64,000 nucleotides of DNA from Stylophora pistillata (GCF_002571385.2 NW_019218102.1:14768-78767); one strand, 5' to 3'; shown: positions 10,934 to 49,735, numbered from the stretch's first letter. Translations and numbers: made by a program. Notes: generated by a model from the sequence alone, not told the origin.

Positions 10934-13900
10934 TTAGTTTTTGGACTTATATGGTGATTTATAGTGTTTTATCCATAACACATATGCTCACCCCACATAC
11001 AACAAGCATCATTCCAAGGAATGTTCCTGCAAATAAAACGCCATTGTTAAGAACTTGATCCAAAGCATGGCATGAAGAAGTAAGATTTTGCACCCTCAAA
11101 CTCTTGCATTCATCCAAATACAAAAAGTTTTTAAAGTAGACTGGATGGCACAGCTGCTAACTAGAGGCTTATCCCAATTTCTGTATTATCAAGTAACTTG
11201 GACCATATTGTAGGTACCAGTCTCTTGCCAGTTTTCTTTTAACCCATTCCTGTTCCTATTCTTATCCATGACTTTAAACTAGAGACTTGGGGTCTGGGAA
11301 CCAAGCCACCAGGCCACCTATTCTCCCATAAAAGTAACTGTGGAGTCACCAGGGAGTGGTGATCACCTGTCACACAAGCTATTTATTATTACTATTTTTT
11401 TCAACTGAGCATGTCTTAACTGAGTCTTTCAAGAGACTTCTTTATCATAAATACCTGCATTAATATTGTCTTCACCTAAAAGCCTCCCAGTCAATGTGGT
11501 GATGATCATAGTCAAAGAGTTAGTAACTGGCACAGCAACAGACAAATCTAGAACATGAATGACATCAATGGACAAAAAATATTAATGATTGTCTTATGGT
11601 TCTTGAGATAAGGACATATTAAGGTTGAAAGTCATCAAAACTTGTTGTTGATCACTGACCTGCAGATGCAAGTGTCAGGTAATAAACCACTGATCCACTC
11701 TGGTTTAACAAAAAGGGAATCAAATACTGTGGGAAAAAAAATTCCATCAGGCATCATGCATTGATCAATAAGCCTGACATAGCTATAACTTATTTCCTAT
11801 ATTAAGCACTCAGGCACTTATTTAAAATTTAGCACTTAATGCACTCATTAAAGCGGGCAAGCAAGAACTACTGGTAGTCTGGAAAGCATTGATTGGTAAG
11901 TAGGTGGTGCCTGTGATCAATTAGACTTGCACATATATATAGATATACAATATACTGAAAAAACTTTGACTTAAAGGTGTTTGTAATGAACAGCAAGACT
12001 GCACAGCTCGCTGGGTACACATTATACTTAATAACCACGATTAGTACATGGTGAATGATGGAAGGTATCTACACTTTCCTGGAAGAAAAGGATTATCATA
12101 ACTAAGGTTTTTCACGAATAGTGAGAAAAGTGAATCACTAGATTAAGTACCTGCACCAACATTTCCCATAAGGCTGTGGGGCCTTGATGCTTTCAGGTGT
12201 TTTTTCAACTTGGTGTATACGTTTTGTTGGAAGGGTATAGGGCTTGGCATTTCTAAAGGATACACTGTACCTCCTGGCCCTGCTGTACTGTCTGGGTATG
12301 TATGGAAACAATGTATTTATTAATACATCCTTTCCCAGGTCATTGTAATGAAATAGCACAATTCGATTGTGAAAAACGTTGGTCTTTCAAACAGCGATAC
12401 ATGTAATGATCAGAAAATGTCCCTCACCTTCCAGTTGGATAGAAGAAAGAGCACTTCTGCAAAAAACTGCCCAATGCGACTTGGTCTGTGAATATCCTCT
12501 ATCCCTTTACTTCCTTTTCTTATAAGAGGATTTGTGGAGCCCCATAACAGTGACACAATGTACAACCAGAATGCATTTGCTACAAGATCAGGCAGAGTAA
12601 TAAAAACATTATTACATAAGGCAAGAGAAACCTAAGTTATTCAATTTGGACCAACGTTTATCCTTGAATTTCCTTTCACTCCTTAGAATGATCAATATAA
12701 AATTTCTCCATAAAATATCAACACATTGTCGAGAAAACATTTGATAAGAATAACGAAAAGTATCGAATCAGGGTGACGGTTCAATTGAAGACAAGGAAAC
12801 ACCTAAACTTTATTATTATTACCCATTCACTAAAATTCTATTCCTACAATATAGTATAAGCTCAATTAAAATAAAATCTGTCATAGGCCTCATTTCACAT
12901 AATTATTTCATTCTAATGATTACAATCTAATTGATTACGTTCTGTTACTTCCTAATCCTATCCTTAACTATTTCCAACTTCAACCCAGCTCAAGAGAAAT
13001 ATCATTGAAAATCAGTTCTTTGAAAATAAGAAAATAAAAAAACATCCATCTTACATATAAAAAGATCTAAAAGTATTCTTAAAAAAGACAAAAACTATTC
13101 TCTAAATCCTGCTTGTTCTCTTTCAATCTCAAAGTCACAGTGCTCAATGTTCAGAGGGACATGCCTAGTGGCGCATGAACCTCTTAGGCAAAGTAAGGCG
13201 GACCTAAGTAGAGCAAAGGACACTTTTGAACATATCCATGAAATTGTTGTGCTATACTCCTCTCCTCTCTTAATAGATATGAGTTCTGCCAGTGGAAACG
13301 CTTGCATTCATCTGCCATGCCTCTGGTAGTAGTGAAGACTAAAAGTGTAAAAGTCCCTCATTCAACTTCCAAAACCCTGTTTGCGTATAACCTCTTCTTC
13401 TTATCTTCATGTTTGCGATAAATCTGCTGGATGGTGAGATCTTTGTAAGACTGCATTTGGGTGAAAAACCCTCACATCAAAAAAGGCAAAGCCTTGCCCA
13501 TACCAGAACCCAAGAGAGTGAACATCCAGTCAGGCATCCGGTGCTAAGTTCGTACCCCTCGTCAGCACTTCTCCCATTATCTCCTGGAGTATGGGTTCCA
13601 CTTGCCCATCGTGGCAAACAATGTTTAGCACATCAGCCTCAAGATCATGCAGCTCGTTATGCCTCTGGATGATGAATCCTCCTTGTTTACACACCATGGC
13701 ATAATCCACCGTAAAAGTATCTTCACAAATACAAGTGGAGGGCGTGTCAGCTATGTGCCAGTCATAGCGGAGATGAACAGCATCCCTGAACTCTCTCTTG
13801 TTTAAAGTAAAGTTCATATCCTTTAATGGGATAACTGTTAGCCAGCTAGACGCATCTTTTTCTGTAGCAAGGATAGCGTCTCTCCTGGTGTTATCAGGGA

Positions 13901-30601: not shown

Positions 30602-30713
30602 GCTCCCGTAGCACAGTCGGTTAGAGCGTCGTACTTATATGCAGTTACTGGCGTTATCCGCCGAGGGTGCTGAAGTAATGCGAAGGTCGGGGGTTCGAGC
30701 CCCCCCGGGAGCA
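30602..30713 (+). tRNA. tRNA-Ile(TAT) with a 38-nt intron (30640-30677)
   Basis: Acceptor stem GCTCCCG/CGGGAGC, D arm, anticodon stem TCGTA/TGCGA with CT-TAT-A, T arm GGGGG-TTCGAGC-CCCCC; Pol III T-run at 30721-30734. Confidence 0.93.
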
Positions 30714-31440: not shown

Positions 31441-32292
31441 TCAGTCAGTGTTGTAGTTTCGTTCAAGAACTGCAGCTCTTCGCGGAGTGTTCAAGGTGTC
31501 GAAAAGCTTGTAAAGTGCGTTCGCATCATTGGATCTTGTTTTCTTTTCAAGTGGAACATCGGCCAATTCTTTCAATTCCTTTACCGCGGCTTTTAAGGGT
31601 TCCTAAAACAAGTCACGAAAAAGCAAGTGAAACAATTACTTCTTGACGATCTTTCAAGCCTGCTAATTGTTCGAATACAATATGGTTAGCTTTTGACTAA
31701 AAAATCTCAGCGAAAAGGGTCGGTTAGGCCTGGATTTGAAGATTCTCCCCTCAACTAAGAATATACACAGGTTGAAATTTATCAGTTTGTAATATATAGT
31801 TTCGCCAGAGCCTTAGAGTCCAGAAATAACTGAGAGAAAAATAACTTTTTAGCAGGTCAAGCTCACGGAGATCAGAATAATCGAATCAAACACATCTAAC
31901 TCTATAGATAAACTATTTGTAACAGCACATTGTAAACAGATAGTTACCATTATCGAAACATGCGTAATATCGACGAAATGTTCAGTACAGTCAAGAATTC
32001 TGTCTGCTTGCCGAGGCCATAGTTCAACATGAACTCCTTTCTTTGCATAACAGGGTCTGGACGCAGCCCCACCCATTGACTTTTTCTAGTTATTTATGAT
32101 TTCACAGTTTTATAACGCTAATAGTAAACAACCTTGAAACAATCATACCTTGCTGTATGCTGCTGAATCAGAGACGATCGAGCGGCCACTTAAAAAATTA
32201 TGAGTCAGTTGCCCACATATAAACTGAACCTGAAGTACTACAAGAAAACAACACACTAACCAGCTAAAGGACAATTTTAGACCACAACACAT
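31441..32292 (-). CDS. Putative neuropeptide precursor B (predicted pQLTHNFLSamide)
   Basis: Exon 32149-32292: MCCGLKLSFSWLVCCFLVVLQVQFICG-QLTHNFLS-G-R-SIVSDSAAYSK|gtatga. Last exon 31441-31602: EPLKAAVKELKELADVPLEKKTRSNDANALYKLFDTLNTPRRAAVLERNYNTD*. AATAAA at about 31314-31319. Possible internal exon at about 31950-32085. Confidence 0.7.
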
Positions 32293-33687: not shown

Positions 33688-34450
33688 TTAGTTCTCATCA
33701 TCAGCATCTCTTGCGAGGTTTCTTCCATTAGAAACACTGTTGTAATAATTGTGCAGAGCTTTTCCTCGGCGGTCGACTGTTCTCGCCTCATATTCTCCAG
33801 GGGTCCTCTGATTTTTGTTCATGGAATCTGTGCCTCTCTTTTCGTCATTTCCTACAGTATTCTAAACGATGAAATTAAGGTGTTACTTTTGGCACAACAA
33901 TTCCATGCGTTGAATGTGCGATCTTTCAGGAATAGGTAATGAAACAGACAACCATAAAAAAATGCCATCTTCCTCTACTCTCTCCGAAAAAAGTAAAAAA
34001 CAGAAAAAACAAAAAAAACAAAAACAAAAACAAAACAAAACAATCGGGAAATGATATATTAGGGTCAGATTCTAGAGGAATGAGAAAATTCTGGAAAAAT
34101 ATGTCAGGAATGGACTTGAAGTTCTCCAATCCAGAATTCACCTTTTACTCCTTGGAATTTGGGTTGAAGTGAAGCGATTCCTTGCATACTTTATGTTGTT
34201 TGGAGTAGCTGGTCTGAAGGATTTGCCACAAAAATTAACATTTCATGGGCACGGAAGGAATTCATTGAACAAGAGAAAATCCAATTAGCGTCAAAGTATG
34301 TTAGTACTTAAAAGTTTGTAAACTTACCTTACGGGCGAAAGATCGCAGAATGAAACTTCGTCCCGGCGGTTTGATGGCGCTTAACTGACACAGTGCAAGT
34401 TGAAAACTAAGGCAAAAAACAACCATCAAGCAGACTAGAGACTTCTTCAT
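33688..34450 (-). CDS. Putative neuropeptide precursor A (predicted pQLSAIKPPamide)
   Basis: Exon 34328-34450: MKKSLVCLMVVFCLSFQLALC-QLSAIKPP-G-R-SFILRSFARK|gtaagt. Optional 24-nt exon 34190-34213 (TSYSKQHK). Last exon 33688-33861: NTVGNDEKRGTDSMNKNQRTPGEYEARTVDRRGKALHNYYNSVSNGRNLARDADDEN*. AATAAA at about 33579-33584. Confidence 0.72.
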
Positions 34451-34539
34451 GTTTCCTTCGTCTTACAAATGAAAATTTAGTTTAAAACCTGACCTCTGCT
34501 TTCAAGCGGTTCGAATGTTGAAACTATTTCAAGTACTCC

Positions 34540-34548
34540 TTATATATA
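34540..34548 (-). promoter_or_regulatory. Candidate TATA box of peptide precursor A
   Basis: TATATATAA on the minus strand about 90 bp upstream of the ATG. Confidence 0.5.
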
Positions 34549-34649
34549 CTGGGAAATTCTATACGATGGCATATCACCCAACATGGTTATAAGTTTGGTA
34601 GTTCAACTGAATACAATAAAATTACGGGCGCGGGGCAAGGTAAGAAAGC

Positions 34650-34725
34650 TGAGCCCCATGTGAGCAGGATTCGAACCGCTTATCTTCCGATTTCGCTATC
34701 GGATGCCCAACCAACTGAGCCAGCA
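34650..34725 (-). mobile_element. tRNA-derived SINE head (A/B boxes)
   Basis: Minus strand TGGCTCAGTTGG...GGTTCGAATCC without a closing acceptor stem. Confidence 0.6.
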
Positions 34726-37700
34726 AAAGGTGTCCGTGAGTTCGTAAGAACTGAATAGATTTGTGACCTTCCATTCACATGTCAACAGACTGACCCTTTA
34801 TTGAAGTTGAGTTTAATAGTTTTTATTAGTCGACCACGTCGAGATTTGTTCCTGCGTTTTCCGTTTCTCAGGGGTTATTGTTTAGAGTGCTATTTTAGAC
34901 ACTTCAAATTAAAATTTTACAAAGCGCTCCATGGGTCCAGAACGCGGAAACTACTTTCTGGAGGCTTTTGTTCTGATTTAATGGGATAAGGTAACAGAAA
35001 CACGGGGATATAATTAAAATAATCAAAACCGGAGATTCTCTCACAAAAGATATTAAAGAGAAAGGTGTTGAGGCAAAACAATTCTGTGTTGATCTTTCAA
35101 TCGATGATCGCCGGATGTCTCGATCGCGTTGGAAGCAGATGAAATAGAATTGTAGCGACCATGTGAGAGTTAAGAAAGTATGGCAGCTTAGGGAGCTCAG
35201 CTTAACATCCGGCGCGTTAAAAATAGGTCTGTATTTCGGACACTTCAGAATAACACTTAACTTACATATTTTAGCTGGGACAAGTTATGTGTAAAGCTGA
35301 CTAAATCTGCGATAAAAGAAGAGTTCGCAAAGAAAATAAATGTGGTGGGCTTCTATCGAAAGTCAGAGAAAATACAACGGGTGTTTACTGCTATTAGGCT
35401 ACATTTTCAACACCTAGACCTGTACCTGGTTGTTATAAGGGCATACACGACATGCTTTCCTGACCAGTATTCCAGAGACGCAACTGAGGAGGGAAACAGA
35501 AATCAAAGCTCCCTTATATGGCAAATCAATAAGATAATTTTAACAAACTACCCACAACAAAACCTTTAAAAAATAGATGAAGTTGGTAACAGAACAATTT
35601 TCAAGACTTTCAAATAAGATGTTGTACCAAGTGCTTTCGCGTGAAAATTGTGCAAGGCATTTGGCGCATTTTACCGAAGCACAAGGGCAGCCGGACTAGC
35701 TCGAGAGTTAAATAACCTTCAGTCGCACAATGATTAGAGTTCTAAGGCCGAGAACACTGGACATGAGCTTTGGGTTCAACGAAGACTTTGAGCTACTCAA
35801 CACAAAAATGACCAAAATTTTCTTTTTGATCATCGCACATGTTGCCGTATGCTCACGTGACATTCGCGTGGTCGAGTAATCGTCGTCGTTGTTGTGAGCA
35901 GCCTGAAGTCTCCTCAGTCTGTTTTCAAACCTCTCCTACCCCTTCACAGGAAACTAATCGCACATGATGTAGGTTACGCCATTTCCACAGATTGTAGCTA
36001 TTATGGGGCCGAGAAGGTATAGTGTTGATGTCGATTGGTATAATTTCATTCAATTCACGAACGATTATGTAGTTGCCACAACATTTCATAATTTGATTAA
36101 TAATTGATACATTATTTACAGGGTCAGCGGGTGAGCTGGCTTGTTTTGAATTTTCTCTCTGTTGACGAAACAGTTTCAATACGGTCTGCTCTAGAACCTA
36201 TGGCTGATTGGTTTAGTTGCGCGAAAACAAAGGAACCGAAGGCTTACAACTTGTAAGCGTGTCCAGCACTGTGCTCATTCGATAGACTGCAAAGCGTCCG
36301 ACACAAAGTTACGGCAGTGGATGAGATGTGAGTGCTTTAATCACTGTTTAAAATAAGAACTCCTCTCGAAATTGCCAAACACCTCCTTCTCTTCTTCCCC
36401 AATTGAAAACACTCCCTCACACACTCAAGCTACGTGCCACGGTTAGAACAGAACGACCTAACTTAAATAACTGTAGTTGTTACATCCTTGCTAAGCACAG
36501 TTTCACGGTGTTAGAGCTCCACAGATACAATCTCCTTCAAGATGTGATTTCTCCTCGACTACCAATCATACCACTCGGTGAAAAAGAGCTCCTTAGTCTT
36601 CGAAAAACACTGGCTTTACTCGCGAACAGTAGAAAAAACCTTTCTTTTCTTTATCGCTTAATGTTGTTGCCAGAAAACGATAAGTTTAGCTCCGGCAACA
36701 TGAAATCAATAGTAAGAACTATGATAAAAATTATAACTATTTTCTAGCCCCACAAAATGTTATTGATTGTGTTTACTGAATGATAACTTTGTATTACTTG
36801 TAGCATTAATTAGATCATTTTTCGGTTTTGAGTCAACTGGTTTTGACCCATATATCACTCTCTATCAGTTACGTGCTATTAAAAGCTTAAAAATGTCAAG
36901 AGAACTTGTTTTTAGTTCGTTTGTCATATGTTACTAGGTAATTAATTTCTGTTTTTGATATATGGTGTGTAACATTCGTAACAAATGATTAAAACTAAAA
37001 ATCAGCTCATTTTTCATTAAAATTTGTCAAAGTTAAATGCTCTAAGAAGAAAATTAATCTGTGTAATCCAGCATCTCCGATCCAGTTATTTAATTTGAAG
37101 TGACAACGCCAAATTGCTTTGGCCTAAGGGAAGTGTTTACGACAAAACGCAATCTATTTCGCTTGGCACGATTTTCTCAGCGACTGAAAGCTTTCAAAAT
37201 ATTTCACTCGTCTATCCGTAATGTGTCCGGGAAAGTCATTCGATTTTCTTTGTTATTGAGTTTTTGTGAATCAATTGAAGGCTGTAGTTGCATCACTTTT
37301 AATTTGATTCAAACAGTATTTTATTTACTCCCTGTAAAAAAGGTGATATCAAGACTCTTAATTTAAGGGGGAGCAATTATGACAAAAGACAGTTGCTTAC
37401 GTAAGTTTGATAGCTTTTTAAAACAGCACGCGAAAAAACCGTTGAGCATTTGAAAAAAAAATTATTAATACCTGTTTGCTAAAATAGAATTAACAAACTA
37501 AAATGGAACCAGGGAAAGAGATCATTTTTCCAATCAAATTAACGATTCGACTGACTTTAATTTGTTCTTTAATAATTCGACAACCCGTCCATTCTTAATT
37601 TTTTAAAAATGGGGGCGAAAGACAGTTAGAGAGAATTGTTTACACTGTTAGTGAAACCTAGAAAAAGTGGAACTGCTACAAGATAGCCTTAGACCCGTTG

Positions 37701-40633
37701 CTAAAAGCTCAATTTTCGTCTGACTTCATCATCCACTTATATGTCCTAAAATTCATTTTATTGTAGCGTTCATTTCGTGGTAGGTTTTGGCTCATAAGAA
37801 CTGTAAACAATTTCTCTAGACAGGTGTGAGAACAAAAGCACAGCAGTCGTTAGCAAATACAACTACGAACAGTATTAATTACAAATTTCGCACAAGCAAA
37901 CTAAATTTCAATGCGATGGATATCTGTTAAATTTGCACAACTCAAACTTGTCCGGGACGACTCCTTGGCGACTGGTCCTTTATTTGACAGATTTACAGGG
38001 TAAGAAATCATCAAGTTCTATAAAAAAATGTTTTTGTTTGTTATAAAATCACTATTTTGAATCATAATTATTAAGTCGTGAGGCAAAAGACAACGACAAC
38101 TTCGTTTTTCCGACATCGAAACACCAAAAGGAAGGTTCGTTTTCGTAATTCAGTAACCAAAACCATTCCCAGCCATTGCCGCCTTGATTCATGATGCGTT
38201 ACATTATCCAATTTCTAGACGTGAGTCAACTGAAAAATGTACCAAGCTGTAGTATACTCACCGAAAACCCTTCAGTTCGTCAGAAATTCGTAGAACACCG
38301 CCATGCTCAGTAGCGCTACACTGCTTTTTCTCTTTCGCAGTGAAATGCTTGGGTGAACATGATGTTTGTCAGTTTTCTATGTTTCTTACTGATTATATAT
38401 TTTTATGCGTAAGGTTTCTTCGCATACAGAGGTAGTTTTGTGAAGTTCGTGATCAATTCTACAGTTAAATTAAATTATTTATGCTCATGGTAATTTCGCA
38501 GGTTTTATCCGGCACAGTTTGGTGTGTTCACCACTTAAGTAACAGCAACCGATAAATGGATATTCTGGAGAGATACTTTTCTCGACAGTTCTGATTTTCT
38601 ACCTGTGATATACCGACAACCGTTAAGGTAAAATATAGTTATGCAATTTTAGACCATTTTCTTTGAAATTACACCTTAAATACCAAAAAGCATTCCATTC
38701 TCGCAGGGTATGAGACAAGCACGAATTACAGTTTACATTTCTCTACTGGTGCATTTTTATTATGCCATGAAGTCGTTTAATCCATCCTTTGTTGAGAATT
38801 TTAATAATGTTCCCGCCCTACAGAGTGGCTATTGTTTTTAGAGTTAATCTATTAGACTCAAGCCTGAAGGTAGCACACAGGGACTTGAAAAACTTCAAGT
38901 TCAAAAGTTTACAACATGCGGAATAGCCATGGTAGCGAAATACAGGGAATATTTATCAGATGATAGAAAAAAGAAAGGTTTTGAAAATTGAAGCCATGGC
39001 AACAGGCACGTTATGTTATTTGTAAACACCACATCTTTGAAAATAGAAAATTAATTCACTGACAAATTGATAAAAAATTAACGGATTTGATGCTCTAACT
39101 GAACTGTCTCAGCAAGACAGATTTATCAATATTTCCCAACCGCTGGGTTCTCATACATAGTCATATCTTTTATGAACAAATGTTTGAGAATTCAAATCAG
39201 AGAAATGGGAGAATTTGTTTGTTTTGAAGAAAATATTTTCCAGAAATATTTGGCCATAAAGGTGTAAAAACAATCATGATCAAAGGGTTGGTTGATTGCA
39301 GAGAAAATCATATGAAAATTTAATGCAAAAACATTTTCAAGAGTGGGTTGCGATTCCGCGGGCTTTGCAAGTGGTTGCCAAATATGGCATATCTCTTATT
39401 AATTCAAATACGATGGCATCAGGAGTCGATTTATTGAACAAATAGTCGTTTTTCATTTGTGAAATAAGACAAATTCCATAGTTTGCCAAGACTTGGCTTC
39501 AGCCGGGGAGATTTTCTCTGTAAAATGGCTATAGTGTAAAACATTTACTGAAATCCAAAGAAAAATGATGCTAAATGGAAGTGAGAAAAGGGATCACCAT
39601 CACTGACGGTCCATTCAATTCTCGCCAGGAAAAAACAAATTATATGTCTAATGACCCCTTAATAGCCCCACATTTTATTTACTTTCTGAATGCTAATATG
39701 GGAGTGTTATCGGTAAAAAACACGAACATGAAAACTTCAAGCTATGAAACTGTTATCTTCCGGTGGATGAAATTTAATCGTCATCTGCCATACAATGGTT
39801 GGACATTTTGTACCTGTGACGGCTTTTTCAAAAAACACGGCTAACTGGACAACAAGCTATCAGCAAGACTCCCTGACTTAACTGTTATGTTGCTTGGGAA
39901 TTAAATATGAGTTATGCCATTAATTTAGATGATCATCAAAAAGGCTTTAGACACTGCGAGATCTCCACTATTGGCGAAGATCTATTATATTATTGTTGAT
40001 GTCTTCCCCTCACGAATTAAACCGACTTCATTAGAATAAACAATTGCGTGTTTGGAAAAGGCCAGTAATTACCTCAAAGCTCCGATCTCTGACGACAAAA
40101 ATGGGGAGAGCAGCATAAAAGACGCTAGTGTTTTGGTAAAAGAATCACTTACTTTAGTATAATACTAGTTGCTTCGCTCTCTCTGTTGTGCGTGGTGCCT
40201 CATTAAATGAAGCAGAAATTACTTTTCAATAACAGCTAACGAGTTATTATACCAAGGTATTACAATTTGCACTTTAGTGGTTGATAGTGTTGTAATTGCG
40301 AGGTGATAAATACATGTAAAACTAAGCTTTTACAATAAGAGCCGCGACGAAGAAGTCAGAGTGTCAAAACTACTAGTAGACTAACAGAGGTACTTTAGGA
40401 GGAATAACGTAAGAAGCTTCTGTAAGAAAAAATCTTCTAATTCTACGATGATCTTTTTTTTACCATGATCAATCGCAAATATTTGCAAGTCTTCCACTGG
40501 CGCATATTTATTTCAGACGATTGACTTTGTTTTTAATATACTTTTCAGGACAGACAGAATTTCTGAAGCGACAAGTTCCAAAAGAGATATTCTCGAATAT
40601 CAAAACCACCAAGACAAAAAATCCAGTGAAACT

Positions 40634-43600
40634 ATGGAAATGGAGGAATTAAAGGCAATTCGAGAGAAAAGAGAGAACTGCATGAAAGAAGTAAAAGACG
40701 CGTGGAAATCAGAAACAGGTGAAGCTACGCGTGTTATCAAAGACTTCAGTGGGTACACCACCCTACACGGGTTTCATTTTGTCCTTGACTCTGCCTCCCG
40801 AATACGAAGGATTATTTGGATCACATTGATTTCCCTCGGCATATGCGCACTCTTCTTCCAGTTTCGAGACAACTGGCGTAAATTACAGAGCTATGAAAGC
40901 GTCATTGGCAAAGATATTGATCATGCCGAGAAGCTGTTGTTCCCTGCAATTACTATTTGCAACCAGAATATGATGCGCAAAAGTAAAATTTGGGGAACAG
41001 ACGCGCAAACATTTCTAGACCAACAAGATCAAGTGAAGTTGCATATCTTTGGAAATAAACTATTGGAACAAGAGACGAGCCCTGACTTCGATCCTGGGGA
41101 GAGTGTGATGAAAAACGGTCACAACCTGTCTGAGATGATGAAAGACTGTAAATGGAAAAATCAGCCATGCGCTCCTGCTAACTTCTCCTCGTTTATTTCT
41201 TTCATGGTGAGGTTTACAAACTTTGTTATGACATACTTTACATACTTTGTTGCCACCTCCCCGTTGGGGAGCCATCTACTCTCTAAGTGAGCAGCAGTGA
41301 AGTGTCACTAACATTCGGCAATAGTACATCAACGGTTGGTAAATTTTTCGTATGTACTTAAAATAAAATGCCGACGATGACGATGATGATATACACCACT
41401 TGCAGGATAGATTAAAAATGAGGTCCATACTTATCTGTGATCTAAAACTTTGACAGTTGTTTCTCTGTTTTTCGATCCGCAAAACAACAAAGGCGAAGAG
41501 GGTAAAAAAAAAAGCAGCTTTCACAGATTCAAAACGAATTTGTTCTGGATCGGTCAGTTTTTCTTAAGACTGAGAAAATGCAAGGATTTTAAACCTCCAA
41601 CTGGTATAAATCTAATGAGATATAGATCGAAGCAGATGTTACTTAGTTTGCTCTTGTTGCCAATCGAGAAAAATGGAGTGTATCGTTGAAGAAGGGAGAG
41701 GAAATATAAGAAAACAAGATAGACTTTTTCACTTTGTATAAAAATAATTTTTCTGCCTGCAGCGTGGGGTGTGCTACACGTTTAACTCTGATCGGCGTGG
41801 TCACCAAAAGCTTTATGTGACAACATCAGGAAAAATCCAAGCCTTGTCACTTTACTTGGATGCGCAACCCGAAGAGTATTACGGACCATACAGCTACGAT
41901 GCGACAGGTTTTAAGATTATGATTCACGATCAGAAGGACTTGTATCCAAACATTGAAGACCTTGCTTTGGACATTACTCCAGGGTTTACCACAAACATAC
42001 GCGTGCGCAGAAGCAAGGTTTGTACAACCAAGTTCTTTGTGGAGAGTACTAGGCCCTCTTTATCTTTCAGACATGTCACTAGGCTAGACCATATGTTGCC
42101 CGAGTCCTGTTTCTTTCATATCGCAAGGATTAGCGATGCCCAACATGAGCAATGTACTTTAATGTATAACGATTTCATTAATTTATTTGTCATTTAAGAT
42201 GGTGAGTCTCCCTGCGCCATTTAAATCCGCCTGCAGCGAGAAGAGCTTGGCAGCTTTCAAAGTGTACTCACAGTACGCATGTCTATTAGAGTGTTACACT
42301 AACATAACCCTCGAAGTGTGTGGCTGTCGGCTGCTGTCTATGCCTTCATTTGGTAAGCAATATGCTGTTTAAGATGATACAAATACACACAGATCAAGGA
42401 GTCAATCAGATAAGAAGATAAAGTTTAAGTTAAAAATGTTAATATTCCAACAGATGAGAACAAAACGAGATATTGCTCCGCGAAGGAAATCTTTACCTGC
42501 GTGTTCCCAAAATATGGTAGGTGTAAGCTTTTGACACAACGAAACACATTTTCCCATTCGTACAAATGCATGTGTCAATCACTCTTTCACTAACTCAGAG
42601 GTAAACAATCAACATCTTTACAAAACGTATCATTATCTTTATCGCATTATTAGAGCATTATCGCCACTCTTTCCAAAGTAGTGCCACAACTCTGGTGTGA
42701 AAGTTGAAAAAAAAAATTAAAATTTAGCCAGGTTAAGATGACCTCCCATGTGGCTATCCCAATAGACCGTGTAGGGATGCTAAAATTTCTCTTACTTCTC
42801 TGTTTAGGTAAATTTAATCCAAGCAGTTGTGCCTGCCCGGCACCATGTACGGAGATACGCTATCATGTTCAGGCCTCCATGGCGTACGCTCCGTCAAATC
42901 ACTTATGGGACACAATATTTCCAATGTACAACATGTCAAGTAATGACACAGAGAAAGTTGTTGAGTTCCAGAACTACATCAGGTAAAAAACGCTAAGTCA
43001 CACCCCCACTTTTAGAAGTCCCAAAATCAAGAATGTTGAATATCACAAAACATAATTAGATACCTGTACTCCTACGATACCTGAGGGGTCCTTTTTGTCT
43101 TAGTGTTTGGGATACAGCACGAGCTTCTTCACTAAAGAGACTTTTTTCCACGACTTTATAAAGACTTCTTACGAATGAAATTGTTATCAATAGAATAAGA
43201 AAGATGGTAAAGTTTGATATCTTCCCACGAGCGTAAGAATCGAATCCCTAACTTTCGAATTCTGCGCTCCGATGCTCTATCACTGAGCTACAGAGAACTC
43301 TGCGGTAATTTATATGATCTGGACGTGAAGTCGAACAATTCAGGTGTCCAGTACTGAACGCTGTACGTTGTTCTTTTTGAGCTTTAGTACTATACGACGA
43401 ATTTATTTGACTACTCCTCTAGATTTTTTTTGTATCGTTGCATTGGTAGGCAAAGAATGGCCCAAGTGAACATTTATTACGAAAGTCTGGACACAGAAGT
43501 CACGGAGGAGAAACCTGCGTATGATTTCAATGCTTTTGGATGTGAGTACTGTTTTTGGTCAAGTTCTTACCTCTAAAATACCTCAGTTTATTTGGCGATA

Positions 43601-44237
43601 AAGTTTGGTGAAGGAATACGTTGGTAGCGTCTTCCTTACAGAGCTTACAGCAAGTGCACTAGGAGCGTTTATTGACTTGTATTACAATCCATTAAAGCAC
43701 GACTTGCGCCGTGAATTGCCGGGGAATAATATCTGTATCACTGACCTTTATATAGTAGAAACTAAAAATTATGAGAAACATTCCATTTCTTAACGTACAG
43801 ATGACCATATTAAAGATAGATCTAGCGAGGCCTAAAAGCGGAGCTCCGGATGGGAAATGCTTCATTAGTTTTCCTTCAGCCCGTGTTGTGCCAGCAGCTT
43901 GTCGCGCACACAAACACAAAACGCATAAACATCACGTAACAGCCAAATTTTAAGGGTTTGGTTCACAGACTGGCATATTTTCTTGGCCAGGGGCCTCCGC
44001 GGCTATAGAGGAGCGTAAGAATCGACTATAGAGGAGCGTAGAGGAACATTATTAAGTATTTTGGATGATTGTTGTTTTCTCTTTTCCTCTCTAGCGGACG
44101 TAGGAGGTAACATGGGATTATTTCTCGGCTGTAGTCTGTTGACTTTGTGTGAATTCGTTGATCTGATTGTGATCATGTGTCTTCGTTGCTGGCGGAAGAG
44201 GAACACCGTAGATCTCAAGGCGGATCCATATCAATAA
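40634..44237 (+). CDS. DEG/ENaC (ASIC-like) sodium channel subunit
   Basis: Exons 40634-41206 (TTLHGF, TM1, FPAITICNQN), 41763-42017 (RGVCYTFNS), 42199-42352, 42454-42516, 42808-42982 (CACPAPC), 43450-43541, 44095-44237 (SDVGGNMGLFLGCSLLTLCEFVD...stop). Possible upstream coding exon 37911-37999. Confidence 0.93.
43224..43305 (-). mobile_element. tRNA-derived SINE head in a DEG/ENaC intron
   Basis: Minus strand GTAGCTCAGTGATAGAGCATCGGAGCGC...GATTCGATTC. Confidence 0.6.
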
Positions 44238-44399
44238 AAAATTACTTGAGTATTCAAAACTGTAAATGTGAAGCAGGTAGTTAATATTCGCGCTTATGGA
44301 ATGAAAAAAATGATCAGAATACGCAAACCCAAATCAGTTCAGCCTACTATGATTATGCTCTTTGAGTCTCTCTATACCGTCTGCGCGCTAAAAAAGGTT

Positions 44400-44750
44400 G
44401 TCCATGTGGGGCAATGTTGCTGTGCATCTGTTCAGAAATAGATTGCAGATGACGTCAAAATGTGCTAAGGACAAAAAAGGAGCACACAAAGCGCAGCCGA
44501 GTGTCTCACTTCTCTGATCTATGACTGAACAGACGCACAGCAACATGGAATCAATTTGTTTTATATTATAAAAAGGCAAAATGTTGTTTATGTCCCGTCC
44601 TCCAATAGATCATAGTAAGAGCCAATCAAAAGGTGTGCAATAGATCATAGTAAGAGCCAATCAAAACGTGTGCAATAGATCATAGTAAGAGCCAATCAAA
44701 ANGTGTGCAAAAGTAGTTTCAAAGAGCCAATCAAAAGGTGTGCATGATTC
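44400..44750. repeat. Interspersed repeat with an internal ~35-bp tandem array (about 4 copies, 44603-44743)
   Basis: caatagatcatagtaagagccaatcaaaaggtgtg repeated; short inverted segments gttgctgtgc.tctgttcag / ctgaacagacgcacagcaac. Confidence 0.7.
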
Positions 44751-46810
44751 AGTTTATTATATGAATATTGTAACTAGAGAAAGCCCCCTAACATTTAAAA
44801 ATTCATTAATTTCTGCCAGCGTGACTGAAAATAGGGGTTGAATTTAGAAAAACTAGACTAAAAAGCTTGTGCTTTGCAGATCAGCTTATAAATATCTATA
44901 GTGGCTAAAATCTCTGGATTTATTTGAGAAATCAATTTTGATTCTATGTGGTGTGCTGGGTTCAGAAGTCGTTAAACTCATAGGGAATGGGAAGCCTTCA
45001 TAATACAATCGTTTTCAACATTTTGGAGTTTCTTTTAAAATTAATAAAAACTGGAAAATAGAGAATAAGCGACTATAAACAGACTGATACATACTAAACG
45101 TTTCAGTTAGTAGGGTATTTCAAATCCGATTTCATGATTGGACTGTTGTTTAAATTTACCTTTTCTCTGCCAATCACGCATAATGTTGAAGGTTTGTCCG
45201 AGGTAACTTTAAACTCGCCCCAATATCAAAGTAGAAGACCGAACACATCGTTAAAAATAATTACGGTAAAAAAGATGATTGTTTTCGTGTTTTGGACCAA
45301 AAAAGTTAAAAGTACATGTTTTCACCTGCATAGCGTTTGATGAAATTCTATGCCTTGAGTTTAAAGTTAGTCACTCCGATTAATTCAGCGCTGTATCAAA
45401 TAAAAATCCCGTTTATCACTTTGGATACCTCTTGTGTATCATGCGCTAAAGCAACCAAAACAACCCACGCCAACGATGGCTGAAGAGATGCACTATATGA
45501 CTAACTTCCATATCAACCCAACACCACAGTGAAAAATCCAATTATTTGGAGTAACAGCAACCACAATAGTCAGAGGATTATAAAAGTAACTCTCAGCGCT
45601 AGTGCGCTAGTTTACATGTAATTCGAATAGCAAAGATTTTCTGCACTAATACTTATGAGTAAATAATGCATCAATCTTTCTTATCAATGTCTATAGTCAA
45701 ATTACAAGCCAAATAATTCACGCAAGAAACTGAGATGATACCGGATTTGGTTATATACAGAGCACACGTTCGACCTAATAGTTTAAGCTAACCTAGAAGT
45801 ACAACGACCCAAGGATGGGGGACAGCCAATTCCCAGCAGCAACCCACAGAGCAATATTCTTCAATTAAAAAGACAAAATATTTAAGAAACGGCTCAATCT
45901 TCACGTGACCTATAACTAACGCAACCATCCCACTTCTTATGCTCTCCCAATCATTTACGACAGTAAAACAACTCTTCTGCCTGCGAGCTTCAAAGAGGAT
46001 ATAGTCTAGGAACCCCCTTCCTTTCCCGACAATAACTAATTCAAAAAATGATACGGGCAATTGTTGTTACATACAATTTATTAATTGATGATTACGGCTG
46101 GCAAAAACAGTGGGAATACAACCTCTCATCTGCTGATTATTTCGCCAATCATTGTCTGTCTGAATATCTCCGGACATAATGCGATAACTCATCGAGTACA
46201 TGAACTGTTTCCCTGATTCCAGAGCATAATCTTTCATGCCAGCAGTGATGATTACTTTGAAAAACCTTTCATATGTGTGTGGTTGGATGATAGGTAATGA
46301 AACTCAATTGCTTCCATTTTCCATAAATTACGATTATGGAAATGATCTCAAACCTGTAATAATTCACATGATTACTGAATTGACTGAAGGATTCGGTGGA
46401 TAAATTTACCTCCCCCCCCCCCCCCGATAAAAAAAACCACATTCACGCAGATGGAATAAAACGAACGTGCGTAATAAGGTACTGAAAAGCGAATCATTTG
46501 AAACGGTTGCAAGTCAAGTTAGAGCAAGAGAGAGTCTATAAATGTAGATATTGTACAAGCCATGGAAACTGAAAATGATAACGAAAAAAATAATCAAGTT
46601 TTGAGATTATAACAAATTTGATGATAGTAAAACATGGACATTTGATAATTTGATTGAGAAAAAGCATAACATATGTGATAAAGCCTTTCACTTGATATCT
46701 CATCTTGATTCGAACAGCGCGGGGGTTATCATATTGGCTGGTTACAAGCATGTTCAGATGGTTACAGGACTGGTGCAAACCAATGTCAGAGAGATAGACG
46801 AAGAGTACTT

Positions 46811-49735
46811 TTAAGTTCCTTGCTGTGATAAGTGTGTTGGCTCCTTGACTAAGCAAGATCGATCGTTTGCTGTTACTGCACTTTCAGCAAACATACTTGG
46901 AGATGAGCCAATGACTTCTTTTTTATCTTTGACAATCTCTTGAGAATGTACACCGTTACCAGCGTGACCAATCAAAGGTCTTGCAGTGTCGTGTGACACT
47001 GGATTCTCACGCAAGGTTCCACCATTTTTATGAACCAAATGTGTGCCACTGTCACGCTCTTTGCCATTTACATGATGTAAACCTTCTGGAGACTCGACGT
47101 GTGAACTGTTGCTTGACAATAAAACAGCATTGGCAGTGAGGTTGCTTGCACTTTTAGCCACTTCATTTAAAAGTAATTCTGTTTCGTCAGGGTGTTGTTG
47201 TGTTACCACATTTCCTGTGTTGCTGTCTCCAGTGTTACTGCAGCTTGGTTTCTTTTGTTGTTTTTCGAGTTCTCTACATGGAAGATGTTTTGTCAGGCAA
47301 ATTCTCTGGTTAAATGTTTTGTTGCAAGTGTCACATTTGTAAGGTTTTTCGTCGGAATGAATATAGCTGTGCTCTTGTAAATGGTGCTTTCGTTTGAACG
47401 CTTTACCGCATACCTAAAACAAACGATTCCCTCCATTTGTTATCAATATAACAATTGTAATAAAACCCCTTAGGATTAAAAAATCATCATTAGGTCGGTT
47501 CGGAGAAAAAAAATTAGCAAATTGTACAAGTAATAGGAAAAAACCGTTCTGCTTTCTCAGCAGGCAGTTGAGACACCAAGTTGATTATTATTTAAAGTGA
47601 ACAGATATAGTATATTGACGCAGCGAATTCTGAAAAGCGGACTCTCGAGTTTTCAGCCTTCGGTCAGACTTCAGTGTTGCGGTTGAACGTGTTCATATAT
47701 TAGGGTAATAATACAGCTTTGCTATTCGTGCAAGAAGAGTAACGGATAATACATGAACAAACCAACTATTGATTGTTGATTCCTTGAGAGGTAGGATGCC
47801 GATGTCAAAGATCAATTTTTGTTCTGAAGTTTTACAACTTTCAGAGTTGGCTTGCTGGTTAGAAGCTCCCGCACAACTTTGTTTGGTTTGCAGTCTTGTC
47901 AAAGTGATAAGCAGGTTTTAAAATCTGCAGTTGTTATTTCATCTCTCTGTGGCACTATCGAAATTACCAATGAACAGTATTCTGGTGTGTCACGTGGTAA
48001 CCCCATTCCACACAATAACCCCACCATCACCCAAATAAAAGTTAATAATTGGTAAAAGACAAACAGAGCTTGACTGTGTCATGAAACAGGAACATCAAAA
48101 TTGAGGTTAGGAAAGAGGCACTCAGGAAGTAAATATTACTTTAGTCTGCAGAAAGTCTAGCATGCTCTGCAGACAACAAACTTGGCAGTCAGATGACTTG
48201 GTTGTGTCTGAAAGTTGACATCAGTTTTGAACAATTTGGGTCTTTATTTCTAAGATCAATGAGAGGATAGAAATTGTTGGTAAAGCAGTGGTTGACCTGA
48301 ATGTTATGGAGGAATTCACCAATCTGACCTCACAGTTTTCATCATTACATGAACAAGCATAACCAGTCATAAAGCTAATTTCAGGTTGTACCATAATCTT
48401 ATCCAAATAGAGGACATGTGTTACCTGACATGCATAAGGCCTGTCACTTGCAGTGCTGCTCTTCTTTGTGGACACCTGGTTAGACAGAGCTGGAGGTATC
48501 TTCTGTGGTGCATTCTGGGAATGTTGTCTTGTGACATGTTGCTTTAAGCCACTACTTTTTCTGAATGATGATTCACACTGAGAGCATTTAAAAGGTTTCT
48601 CATCTGAAATTTTACAAGACAAGAAATTTTCACTCTTATGCACAGCTGGTGCTACAAACTAAATATGTTGTGAGACTCACAAAAAAAAGCATGCGCAGAG
48701 GCTTAATGATGCTGATGTCACAGAGTTCTGTAACTGACAGCTGAAAATAAATGTTAGCTGATGTAAGCATGTAATATTACAGCTCAATATATCACTAAGC
48801 CTTGCCACATGTCACAGCAATATATTTTGTGTGAAATTCTTCTTTCTTGCCTCAAAATTTGTCTCTGCACAAAGTCACATAAATCAGGCTTGTGGTCATA
48901 GTAATGGCAGAAGTCATAACAATTTGTGCATTGGAGGCTGCCCACACGAGGCAGTTTGTTGGAAACAATTGCGGCAACTTTTTTTTTAATGTTCATTGTG
49001 AACTTTAAGGTTGTTTGGAGTCAGTATTCAAAGTTATTGGAAACTGTGCATCAGAAGTCAATCTGAGGAAAGTGGCCGATGGGATTACCCAGATCTTACC
49101 AATTGTTTTGTTGTCACTTTGTGGAACATCTGTGGCACCTTCTTTAGAGATGTTTATTTTATCATCTACAAACCAAATCAATTCCAAAGACATAAGATGA
49201 GGTAAACCAATGATTTAAAAGAATGATTGACAACTCTTTTTGAGGTTAGCAGTTACCATAGCATAAGGCATTGATTTATAGGAATTGCAGATACACTAAC
49301 CACCTTGGACTACAGCATACATGAAAGATATTTACAAGTAGTTAGCCCAGCATTTTAAAGCCAGTCACAGTGTCCTCATGCTTTGAAATACATTCTTTTT
49401 TTTTTTACCTAAAAGCAGGGGGGGTGCTGCAAGGAAGAATCATGACCTCTATCTCAGAGTGGGAATGTACAATTTTGAACAAATACATGCAATCATAAGG
49501 ATATTTAACAATTATTCTACAAGCGTGTGTTGAACATCAGATGATAGATAGCCAACAAGGTGCGTAGTGCCAAGTTGGCTATAATCATCTCATATTCAAC
49601 AAGCGTAATTGAAAATATTGTCTTACTAAAAAAACGCCCCAAGATATTAGAAAAATCTTCTCTACTTTCTTTTATAAGAAGAAACCAGATGTTACAATGT
49701 ACAGATATTAGATTATGGTATATCGGCTCGTATAT

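What the first reader, a model, noticed from the sequence alone, without database searches (positions are those of the whole stretch)
33688..44237. Peptide-precursor pair sits head-to-head with a DEG/ENaC channel: candidate linked ligand-receptor module
Seen: precursor A (minus, ATG 34450) and the channel (plus, ATG 40634 or 37911) diverge from a shared 3.5-6 kb interval with no other gene I can recognise. Known: Hydra HyNaCs are gated directly by amidated pGlu peptides and lophotrochozoan FaNaCs by amidated peptides, whereas many anthozoan DEG/ENaCs are proton-gated or orphan. Inference: the peptides may gate or modulate this channel, or share its regulatory DNA. Adjacency alone could be chance because this channel family is large.
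Basis: inference. Interest (0 to 1): 0.7.

Follow-up and report, generated by a model that had tools for sequence, protein, structure and literature searches.

The report
Orphan coral peptides beside orphan channel
A stony coral has two small spliced, expressed genes predicted to release short hormone-like peptides that I could not match to any described family, sitting next to an ion channel with no known trigger; the closeness is most likely ordinary coral gene order, not a ligand-receptor pair.

Summary
All three genes are real. RNA reads confirm the introns of precursors A and B (minus strand) and of a 484-aa DEG/ENaC channel (plus). The channel starts at 40634; ATG 37911 is an upstream ORF in the observed 5' leader. 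The 5' ends lie about 3.1-3.4 kb apart. The order B-A-channel recurs in one non-pocilloporid coral, but the zinc-finger neighbour on the other side is also kept in a related coral, and coral gene order is known to be highly conserved. The channel belongs to anthozoan subclade III (with NeNaC5/6/10/11), not the HyNaC or FaNaC clades, and lacks the acidic pocket residues shared by ASIC and HyNaC ligand sites. The predicted amidated ends are not conserved (A: KPP vs GPV/KVG; B: FLS vs AWE), and A's last residue varies between RNA assemblies (Pro/Tyr/Leu). No such precursor lies in the flanks of 13 other channel clusters. A ligand-receptor module is not excluded, because subclade III channels were silent in every published oocyte test, but I give it about 7%. 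The real gain is two apparently undescribed single-copy pyroglutamate peptide precursors.

The parts
34328..34450 (-). Precursor A exon 1: predicted signal peptide (1-21), QLSAIKPP-G-R, phase-0 donor after Lys41
   Evidence: splice joint
34358..34387 (-). Predicted peptide of A plus Gly-Arg (would give pGlu-LSAIKPP-amide); codon 29 reads Tyr in X6 and Leu in X3, codon 27 reads Glu in X3
   Evidence: sequence; processing is inferred
33688..33861 (-). Precursor A exon 2 (57 aa + stop), with KR and RR sites and an ALHNYY motif
32149..32292 (-). Precursor B exon 1: predicted signal peptide (1-27), QLTHNFLS-G-R, phase-0 donor after Lys48
32182..32211 (-). Predicted peptide of B plus Gly-Arg (would give pGlu-LTHNFLS-amide)
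   Evidence: sequence; homologues; processing is inferred
31441..31602 (-). Precursor B exon 2 (53 aa + stop)
   Evidence: sole genome-wide match of the L004 exon
37785..37918 (+). Conserved non-coding block at the channel's 5' end (likely core promoter and first exon)
   Evidence: 66% over 137 nt to L004, E 2.7e-10; part of it also in L005, L006
37901..37999 (+). Channel 5' UTR exon 1, holds upstream ATG 37911
   Evidence: contigs X6, X3, X18 and 1 read; uORF
38502..38627 (+). Channel 5' UTR exon 2, holds the stop that closes the uORF
40549..41206 (+). Channel exon 3: ATG 40634, HG motif (45-46), TM1
41763..42017 (+). Channel coding exon
42199..42352 (+). Channel coding exon
42454..42516 (+). 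Channel coding exon
42808..42982 (+). Channel coding exon (cysteine-rich thumb)
43450..43541 (+). Channel coding exon
44095..44237 (+). Channel last coding exon: DEG site Ser438, GCS filter 449-451, TM2, stop

Best explanation
Two small spliced, expressed genes that likely encode secreted single-copy pyroglutamate peptides and likely arose by tandem duplication sit head-to-head with an orphan subclade III DEG/ENaC channel, and the adjacency is most likely ordinary conserved coral gene order. Shown: gene structures, splicing, strands, the 3.1-3.4 kb gap, the channel's clade, the same order in one other coral. Inferred: signal peptidase would expose the N-terminal Gln, which cyclises; cleavage at Gly-Arg (or a later dibasic site) and amidation would release 8-14-residue peptides; these would signal like other anthozoan single-copy peptides, through G protein-coupled receptors encoded elsewhere. 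The channel would work as a cation-channel subunit, probably needing partner subunits, with a stimulus unrelated to these peptides.
For: Shared layout of A and B: signal, Gln-Leu, Gly-Arg-Ser, phase-0 intron after Lys; A vs B global alignment z 4.2, mature parts only z 2.5. Same layout as RWamide precursors (Koch 2020 Additional file 10). Channel groups with NeNaC5/6/10/11 in my tree (14-tip clade, support 1.0; 113 sequences) and in the label order of the published Bayesian tree, apart from HyNaCs and NeNaC1/24. cASIC1 E98, E220, D346, D350, named as shared ligand contacts, align to Met, Ser, Phe, Gly. Predicted amidated ends differ between orthologues; A codon 29 differs in 2 of 4 contig runs. 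The zinc-finger gene is also kept beside the channel in L005; 56.6% collinearity is reported even between robust and complex corals. 0 precursor hits in 26 flanks (239 kb) of 13 other channel clusters. At least 43 channel gene starts on 14 contigs give a 2-19% chance of such adjacency for an assumed 30-300 precursor loci. Thiel 2024 paired peptides of 14 Nematostella precursors with 31 GPCRs.
Against: The adjacency is conserved in the only locus long enough to show it (1 of 1; L004), with similar spacing (A ATG to channel ATG 6.2 vs 5.9 kb). The precursor pattern is rare, so the neighbourhood is mildly unusual. The published negative peptide tests are weak: NeNaC5, 6, 7, 9, 10, 11, 12 gave no current with any stimulus, even as DEG mutants, and no tested peptide resembles A or B. 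Gly-Arg in A and B has no basic residue three places upstream, which Thiel 2024 describes for monobasic cleavage, and residues after Gly-Arg in B are as conserved as those before, so the mature products may be longer or not amidated. Neuronal expression was not tested.
Confidence: 0.6

Rival explanations
1. A and B are secreted peptides but not neuropeptides (fast-evolving gland, mucus, defence or recognition peptides), and are unrelated to the channel.
For: Mature part of A is barely alignable between orthologues (z 2.1, 37 of 1000 shuffles reach the score); non-synonymous variants fall on the predicted peptide; no known neuropeptide C-terminal motif; non-canonical monobasic site.
Against: Gln directly after the signal and Gly plus basic residue are kept in all orthologues seen; no cysteine in the mature parts; B's 20 residues after the signal are 20/20 and 15/20 identical among homologues against 30/46 and 28/46 for the intron read-through.
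Confidence: 0.2
2. The precursors and the channel share enhancers in the 3.3-kb interval and are expressed in the same cell type, with no ligand-receptor relation.
For: Divergent layout and spacing kept in L004; interval is single-copy and holds no other evident gene.
Against: Conserved non-coding matches cluster at the channel's 5' end (37785-37918, weaker 37515-37653); none at A's promoter or mid-interval. The gap is well above the under-1-kb spacing usual for bidirectional promoters (recalled). Four shallow bulk runs cannot show co-expression.
Confidence: 0.12
3. A linked ligand-receptor module: peptide A or B gates or modulates this subclade III channel, a third origin of peptide gating in DEG/ENaCs.
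For: Orphan peptides beside an orphan clade A channel; order conserved in L004; peptide gating arose at least twice in the family; subclade III channels have no known stimulus and the authors allow for unknown peptides, though they say so of NeNaC1/24; the channel lacks ASIC proton-sensor residues.
Against: Not in the HyNaC or FaNaC clades; amidated ends not conserved while the channel is (446 of 484 identical to Pocillopora); A's C-terminal residue is variable; synteny extends to an unrelated gene; no precursor beside 13 other clusters; one paper search found no title describing a head-to-head neuropeptide-receptor pair (listing only).
Confidence: 0.07

Closest known systems
Anthozoan subclade III DEG/ENaCs (NeNaC4, 5, 6, 9, 10, 11, 12; Aguilar-Camacho 2023, PMC9822975)
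   Same: The 484-aa model matches, by eye, the entry labelled Stylophorapistillata15158 in that paper's data; the best full-length Nematostella hit of its Pocillopora orthologue is NeNaC10 at 49%; HG, small DEG residue, GxS filter present.
   Different: Coral orthologue never tested; single copy here, several copies annotated in Acropora; neighbouring precursors not mentioned in the parts I read.
HyNaC / Hydra-RFamide system
   Same: Clade A DEG/ENaC; cnidarian; pyroglutamate amidated short peptides predicted.
   Different: HyNaCs are subclade II with NeNaC1/24 and other coral genes; peptides end in RFamide; obligate heterotrimers; genomic linkage of HyNaC and its precursor is not known to me (recalled).
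FaNaC / WaNaC
   Same: Peptide-gated DEG/ENaCs.
   Different: Clade B; weaker hits than ASICs (FaNaC E 2.8e-36 and 6.4e-19 against ASIC2 6.4e-51).
Antho-RWamide-type single-copy preprohormones (Koch and Grimmelikhuijzen 2020, PMC7523074)
   Same: About 70-100 aa; one Gln-started peptide right after the signal, closed by Gly plus Arg/Lys.
   Different: No Arg-Trp; no Arg three places before the cleavage Arg; none of the listed precursors resembles A or B by eye.

Membership tests
DEG/ENaC superfamily | ASC domain, two TM helices, pre-TM1 HG, GxS filter, cysteine-rich thumb | tested here: met
   PF00858 on exon 1 and on the orthologue; two hydrophobic peaks, 20 Cys; HG 45-46, GCS 449-451
Anthozoan subclade III | Groups with NeNaC6/NeNaC9 and allies | tested here: met
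   Own tree: clade with NeNaC5/6/10/11, support 1.0; published tree label order
HyNaC (peptide-gated, subclade II) | Monophyly with HyNaC2-11 and NeNaC1/24 | tested here: not met
   Published tree labels place it elsewhere, read from PDF text, not the figure; my own tree had no identified HyNaC
HyNaC (peptide-gated, subclade II) | Pocket residues shared with the ASIC acidic pocket (cASIC1 E98, E220, D346, D350) | tested here: not met
   Align to Met113, Ser220, Phe345, Gly349 via the Pocillopora orthologue; compared with cASIC1 only, not with HyNaC sequences
HyNaC (peptide-gated, subclade II) | Direct gating by an amidated peptide | not testable with these tools
   Needs voltage clamp; anemone relatives silent to all stimuli
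ASIC (proton-gated) | His at start of beta-1 and acidic pocket carboxylates | tested here: not met
   The His aligns to Ser89 and the pocket is non-acidic; seven subclade III NeNaCs were pH-insensitive
FaNaC/WaNaC | Clade B placement | tested here: not met
Cnidarian single-copy amidated neuropeptide precursor | Signal peptide followed directly by Gln | tested here: met
   Hydropathy 3.4 and 3.1, small residue before Gln; no SignalP run
Cnidarian single-copy amidated neuropeptide precursor | Gly before a dibasic or Rxx-R site | tested here: inconclusive
   Gly-Arg present but monobasic without the upstream basic residue in A and B; G-K-R or G-R-K-R in A orthologues
Cnidarian single-copy amidated neuropeptide precursor | Conserved C-terminal motif of the mature peptide | tested here: not met
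   A: KPP vs GPV/KVG and GQV; B: FLS vs AWE, though AWE is kept in the three distinct non-pocilloporid exons among the four B hits
Cnidarian single-copy amidated neuropeptide precursor | Neuronal expression and processed peptide detected | not testable with these tools
   Only bulk RNA available
Antho-RWamide / RPamide families | C-terminal Arg-Trp-amide or Arg-Pro-amide | tested here: not met

The most novel reading that the evidence does not exclude
Subclade III is a third, independently evolved class of peptide-gated DEG/ENaCs, and in stony corals the channel gene is physically linked to its own ligand genes, whose pGlu-L...-amide peptides were missing from every screen so far.
Probability: 0.07. 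Interest if true: 0.85.

Novelty: new member of a known kind. Interest (0 to 1): 0.36.

Why it matters
Most anthozoan DEG/ENaCs have no known stimulus, and published screens used only known peptides. A and B add two expressed candidate coral peptides that I could not find described, cheap to synthesise and add to channel and GPCR screens. If one gated the neighbouring channel it would deorphanise a large anthozoan clade and show ligand-receptor linkage; more likely they just extend the coral peptide inventory.

Tried and rejected
ATG 37911 as start: rejected for the observed isoform. Homologue search with A exon 1 alone: 0 of 1 candidate. The four-exon profile found 5 of 650 candidates, all unnamed exon-1 read-throughs, so no accession-based synteny test was possible. 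Exact look-ups of three exon-1 ORFs: none in the collection. Own-genome searches found no third paralogue; one search missed even B, so sensitivity is low. Of 11 metagenome loci only L004 reaches far enough upstream; L005 and L006 stop about 5.4 kb upstream and show no precursor, which is short of A's position in L004. Pfam: no family for A, B or two homologues. The ESM Atlas gave no result. No repeat joins the genes. Bulk read depths of 4 runs are too shallow for co-expression. No structure or complex was predicted: the peptides are too short and modified for the tool. Thiel 2024 Supplementary file 2 (Nematostella precursor list) was unreadable and files 13-31 were not searched, so an anemone homologue already in print is not excluded. 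Our earlier findings: nothing.

Full report
1. What is there. The window is from a stony coral: the channel is 446 of 484 residues identical to a Pocillopora protein and matches, by eye, an entry labelled Stylophorapistillata15158 in the data of Aguilar-Camacho 2023. Gene order around the finding is: FERM-domain gene (minus), MUL1-like E3 ligase (minus), an intron-bearing tRNA, precursor B (minus), precursor A (minus), DEG/ENaC channel (plus), C2H2 zinc-finger gene (minus). A is 98 aa and B is 101 aa. Each has a hydrophobic leader, then Gln-Leu, six more residues, Gly-Arg-Ser, and a phase-0 intron after a Lys. The channel has seven coding exons and six GT-AG introns.

2. Expression. Of 24 runs listed I laid 8: four raw-read runs and four contig runs. 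A's intron is joined in 4 of 4 raw runs (18, 6, 3, 20 reads) and 4 of 4 contig runs; B's in 3 of 4 and 4 of 4. All six channel introns appear in X6 and each in at least one raw run. Read orientation is opposite for precursors and channel, as expected. Two non-coding leader exons were found; with both, the ORF from 37911 ends after 41 codons, so the coding start is 40634. A's 5' end lies at 34498 (9 molecules) to 34796 (longest contig) and the channel's near 37901, a gap of 3.1-3.4 kb. Raw reads are absent from the middle of the gap and it is single-copy.

3. More than chance? A pattern of signal, Gln and Gly-Lys/Arg, tuned on these genes, hits twice in the window, 0 times in 74 background regions (682 kb) and 0, 0, 1 times in shuffles. 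With the splice evidence, the precursors are real genes. For adjacency: PF00858 gives 88 exon matches, 43 of them gene starts, on 14 contigs (lower bound). Taking 10 kb each side of 14 clusters, the chance that at least one of 30, 100 or 300 precursor loci (assumed numbers) lies there is 2%, 7% or 19%. If any plausible receptor had counted, it would be far higher (inference). The 26 flanks of the other 13 clusters hold no such precursor; gaps inside clusters were not scanned.

4. Conservation. Of 11 metagenome loci, one, L004, reaches 10 kb upstream. It is a non-pocilloporid coral (69% identity in channel exon 1; tree) and has both precursors in the same order, strand and two-exon form. Its B exon 2 finds B as the only match in the own genome (E 0.12). 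The control weakens it: L005, a close relative of L004, keeps the zinc-finger gene downstream in the same orientation. Ying 2018 (PMC6214176, passages) reports high gene-order conservation among all corals, and the Astrangia paper (PMC12005167, passages) gives 56.63% collinearity with Acropora. Non-coding conservation is confined to the channel's 5' end, one intron and weakly B's promoter.

5. The peptides. B's homologues read QLSQNLAWE-GRS or QLTHNFAWE-GRS against QLTHNFLS-GRS here. The 20 residues after the signal are 20/20 and 15/20 identical among homologues, against 30/46 and 28/46 for intron read-through, which suggests selection, but it extends past Gly-Arg. A's orthologues read QLGSPQGPVGKV-GGKR and QLGSPQGTVGQV-GRKR; the mature parts align poorly (z 2.1). 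Codon 29 of A, the residue that would carry the amide, is Pro in the window, Tyr in X6 and Leu in X3; X9 and X18 show no change. These may be alleles or cryptic lineages. Receptor-locked amidated ends are usually the most conserved part (established knowledge; Ortega-Ramirez 2024 models the C-terminal Phe as the anchor). The Gly-Arg sites also lack the upstream basic residue described by Thiel 2024 (PMC11087051, passages). The layout matches RWamide precursors (Koch 2020, section 9, passages and Additional files 8 and 10) but no family motif does. A search for WEamide, AWEamide, KPPamide and FLSamide found no paper; passages of PMC11269664 and PMC12225738 showed nothing similar. The Nematostella precursor list could not be read.

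6. The channel. In my FastTree tree of 113 sequences (window, 5 named homologues, 107 of 150 hits kept by length 380-700 aa) it sits in a 14-tip clade, support 1.0, with NeNaC5, 6, 10 and 11. In Aguilar-Camacho 2023 (PMC9822975; Results parts 1-2, Discussion, supplement 2 parts 1 and 3, supplement 4 part 8 and searches) this is subclade III, anthozoan-only apart from PPK17, separate from subclade II with HyNaCs and NeNaC1/24 (label order from PDF text). NeNaC5, 6, 7, 9, 10, 11 and 12 gave no response to pH, low calcium or the peptides tried, and none as DEG mutants. So they are orphans and the negatives are weak. Against cASIC1, the beta-1 His and E98, E220, D346, D350 align to Ser, Met, Ser, Phe, Gly; Ortega-Ramirez 2024 (PMC11474038, abstract and passages) names those four as ligand contacts with counterparts in HyNaCs.

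7. Verdict. Best reading (0.60): two likely secreted pyroglutamate peptide precursors, probably acting through GPCRs, beside an unrelated orphan channel in a conserved block. Rivals: non-neuronal fast-evolving peptides (0.20), shared regulation only (0.12), true ligand-receptor module (0.07). The channel is already in print; the precursors appear to be new members of a known kind. Interest 0.36.

Noticed in passing
window 30602-30713 +: tRNA-like gene with UAU anticodon (Ile) and an insert of about 39 nt in the anticodon loop, Rfam RF00005 52.9 bits; ARAGORN missed it. It lies between the MUL1-like gene and precursor B.
   Followed up: partly
window 33688-33861 - and L004 3947-4090 -: The motif ALH[N/D]YY lies in exon 2 of A here but in exon 1 of the L004 orthologue, each after a basic site; it could be a second peptide or an old internal repeat.
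   Followed up: no
window 31441-31602 - and L004 395-556 -: B exon 2 keeps a KLF-x-x-LNT-x-R stretch and a K-K/R-T-R site between the two corals, a possible second product or sorting helix.
   Followed up: partly
window 37901-40633 +: Channel leader of at least 310 nt holds three upstream ATGs with ORFs of 41, 4 and 12 codons; skipping exon 2 would add an in-frame N-terminal extension.
   Followed up: partly
window 41042: A 3-nt in-frame deletion in channel exon 3 in 5 of 6 reads of X21.
   Followed up: no
window 44275-47500: Reads of both orientations and one contig span the channel's 3' region and the convergent zinc-finger gene, suggesting close or overlapping 3' UTRs.
   Followed up: no
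G000 C30, C1, C436, C73, C184, C270 and others: At least 43 DEG/ENaC gene starts on 14 contigs, mostly tandem arrays (10 on C30, 8 on C1), more than the 26 listed for this species label in PMC9822975.
   Followed up: partly
window 13500-15300, 55000-56400, 56800-63400: Broken reverse-transcriptase-like retroelement fragments and two alpha-tubulin genes on opposite strands, recognised by eye from ORFs.
   Followed up: no
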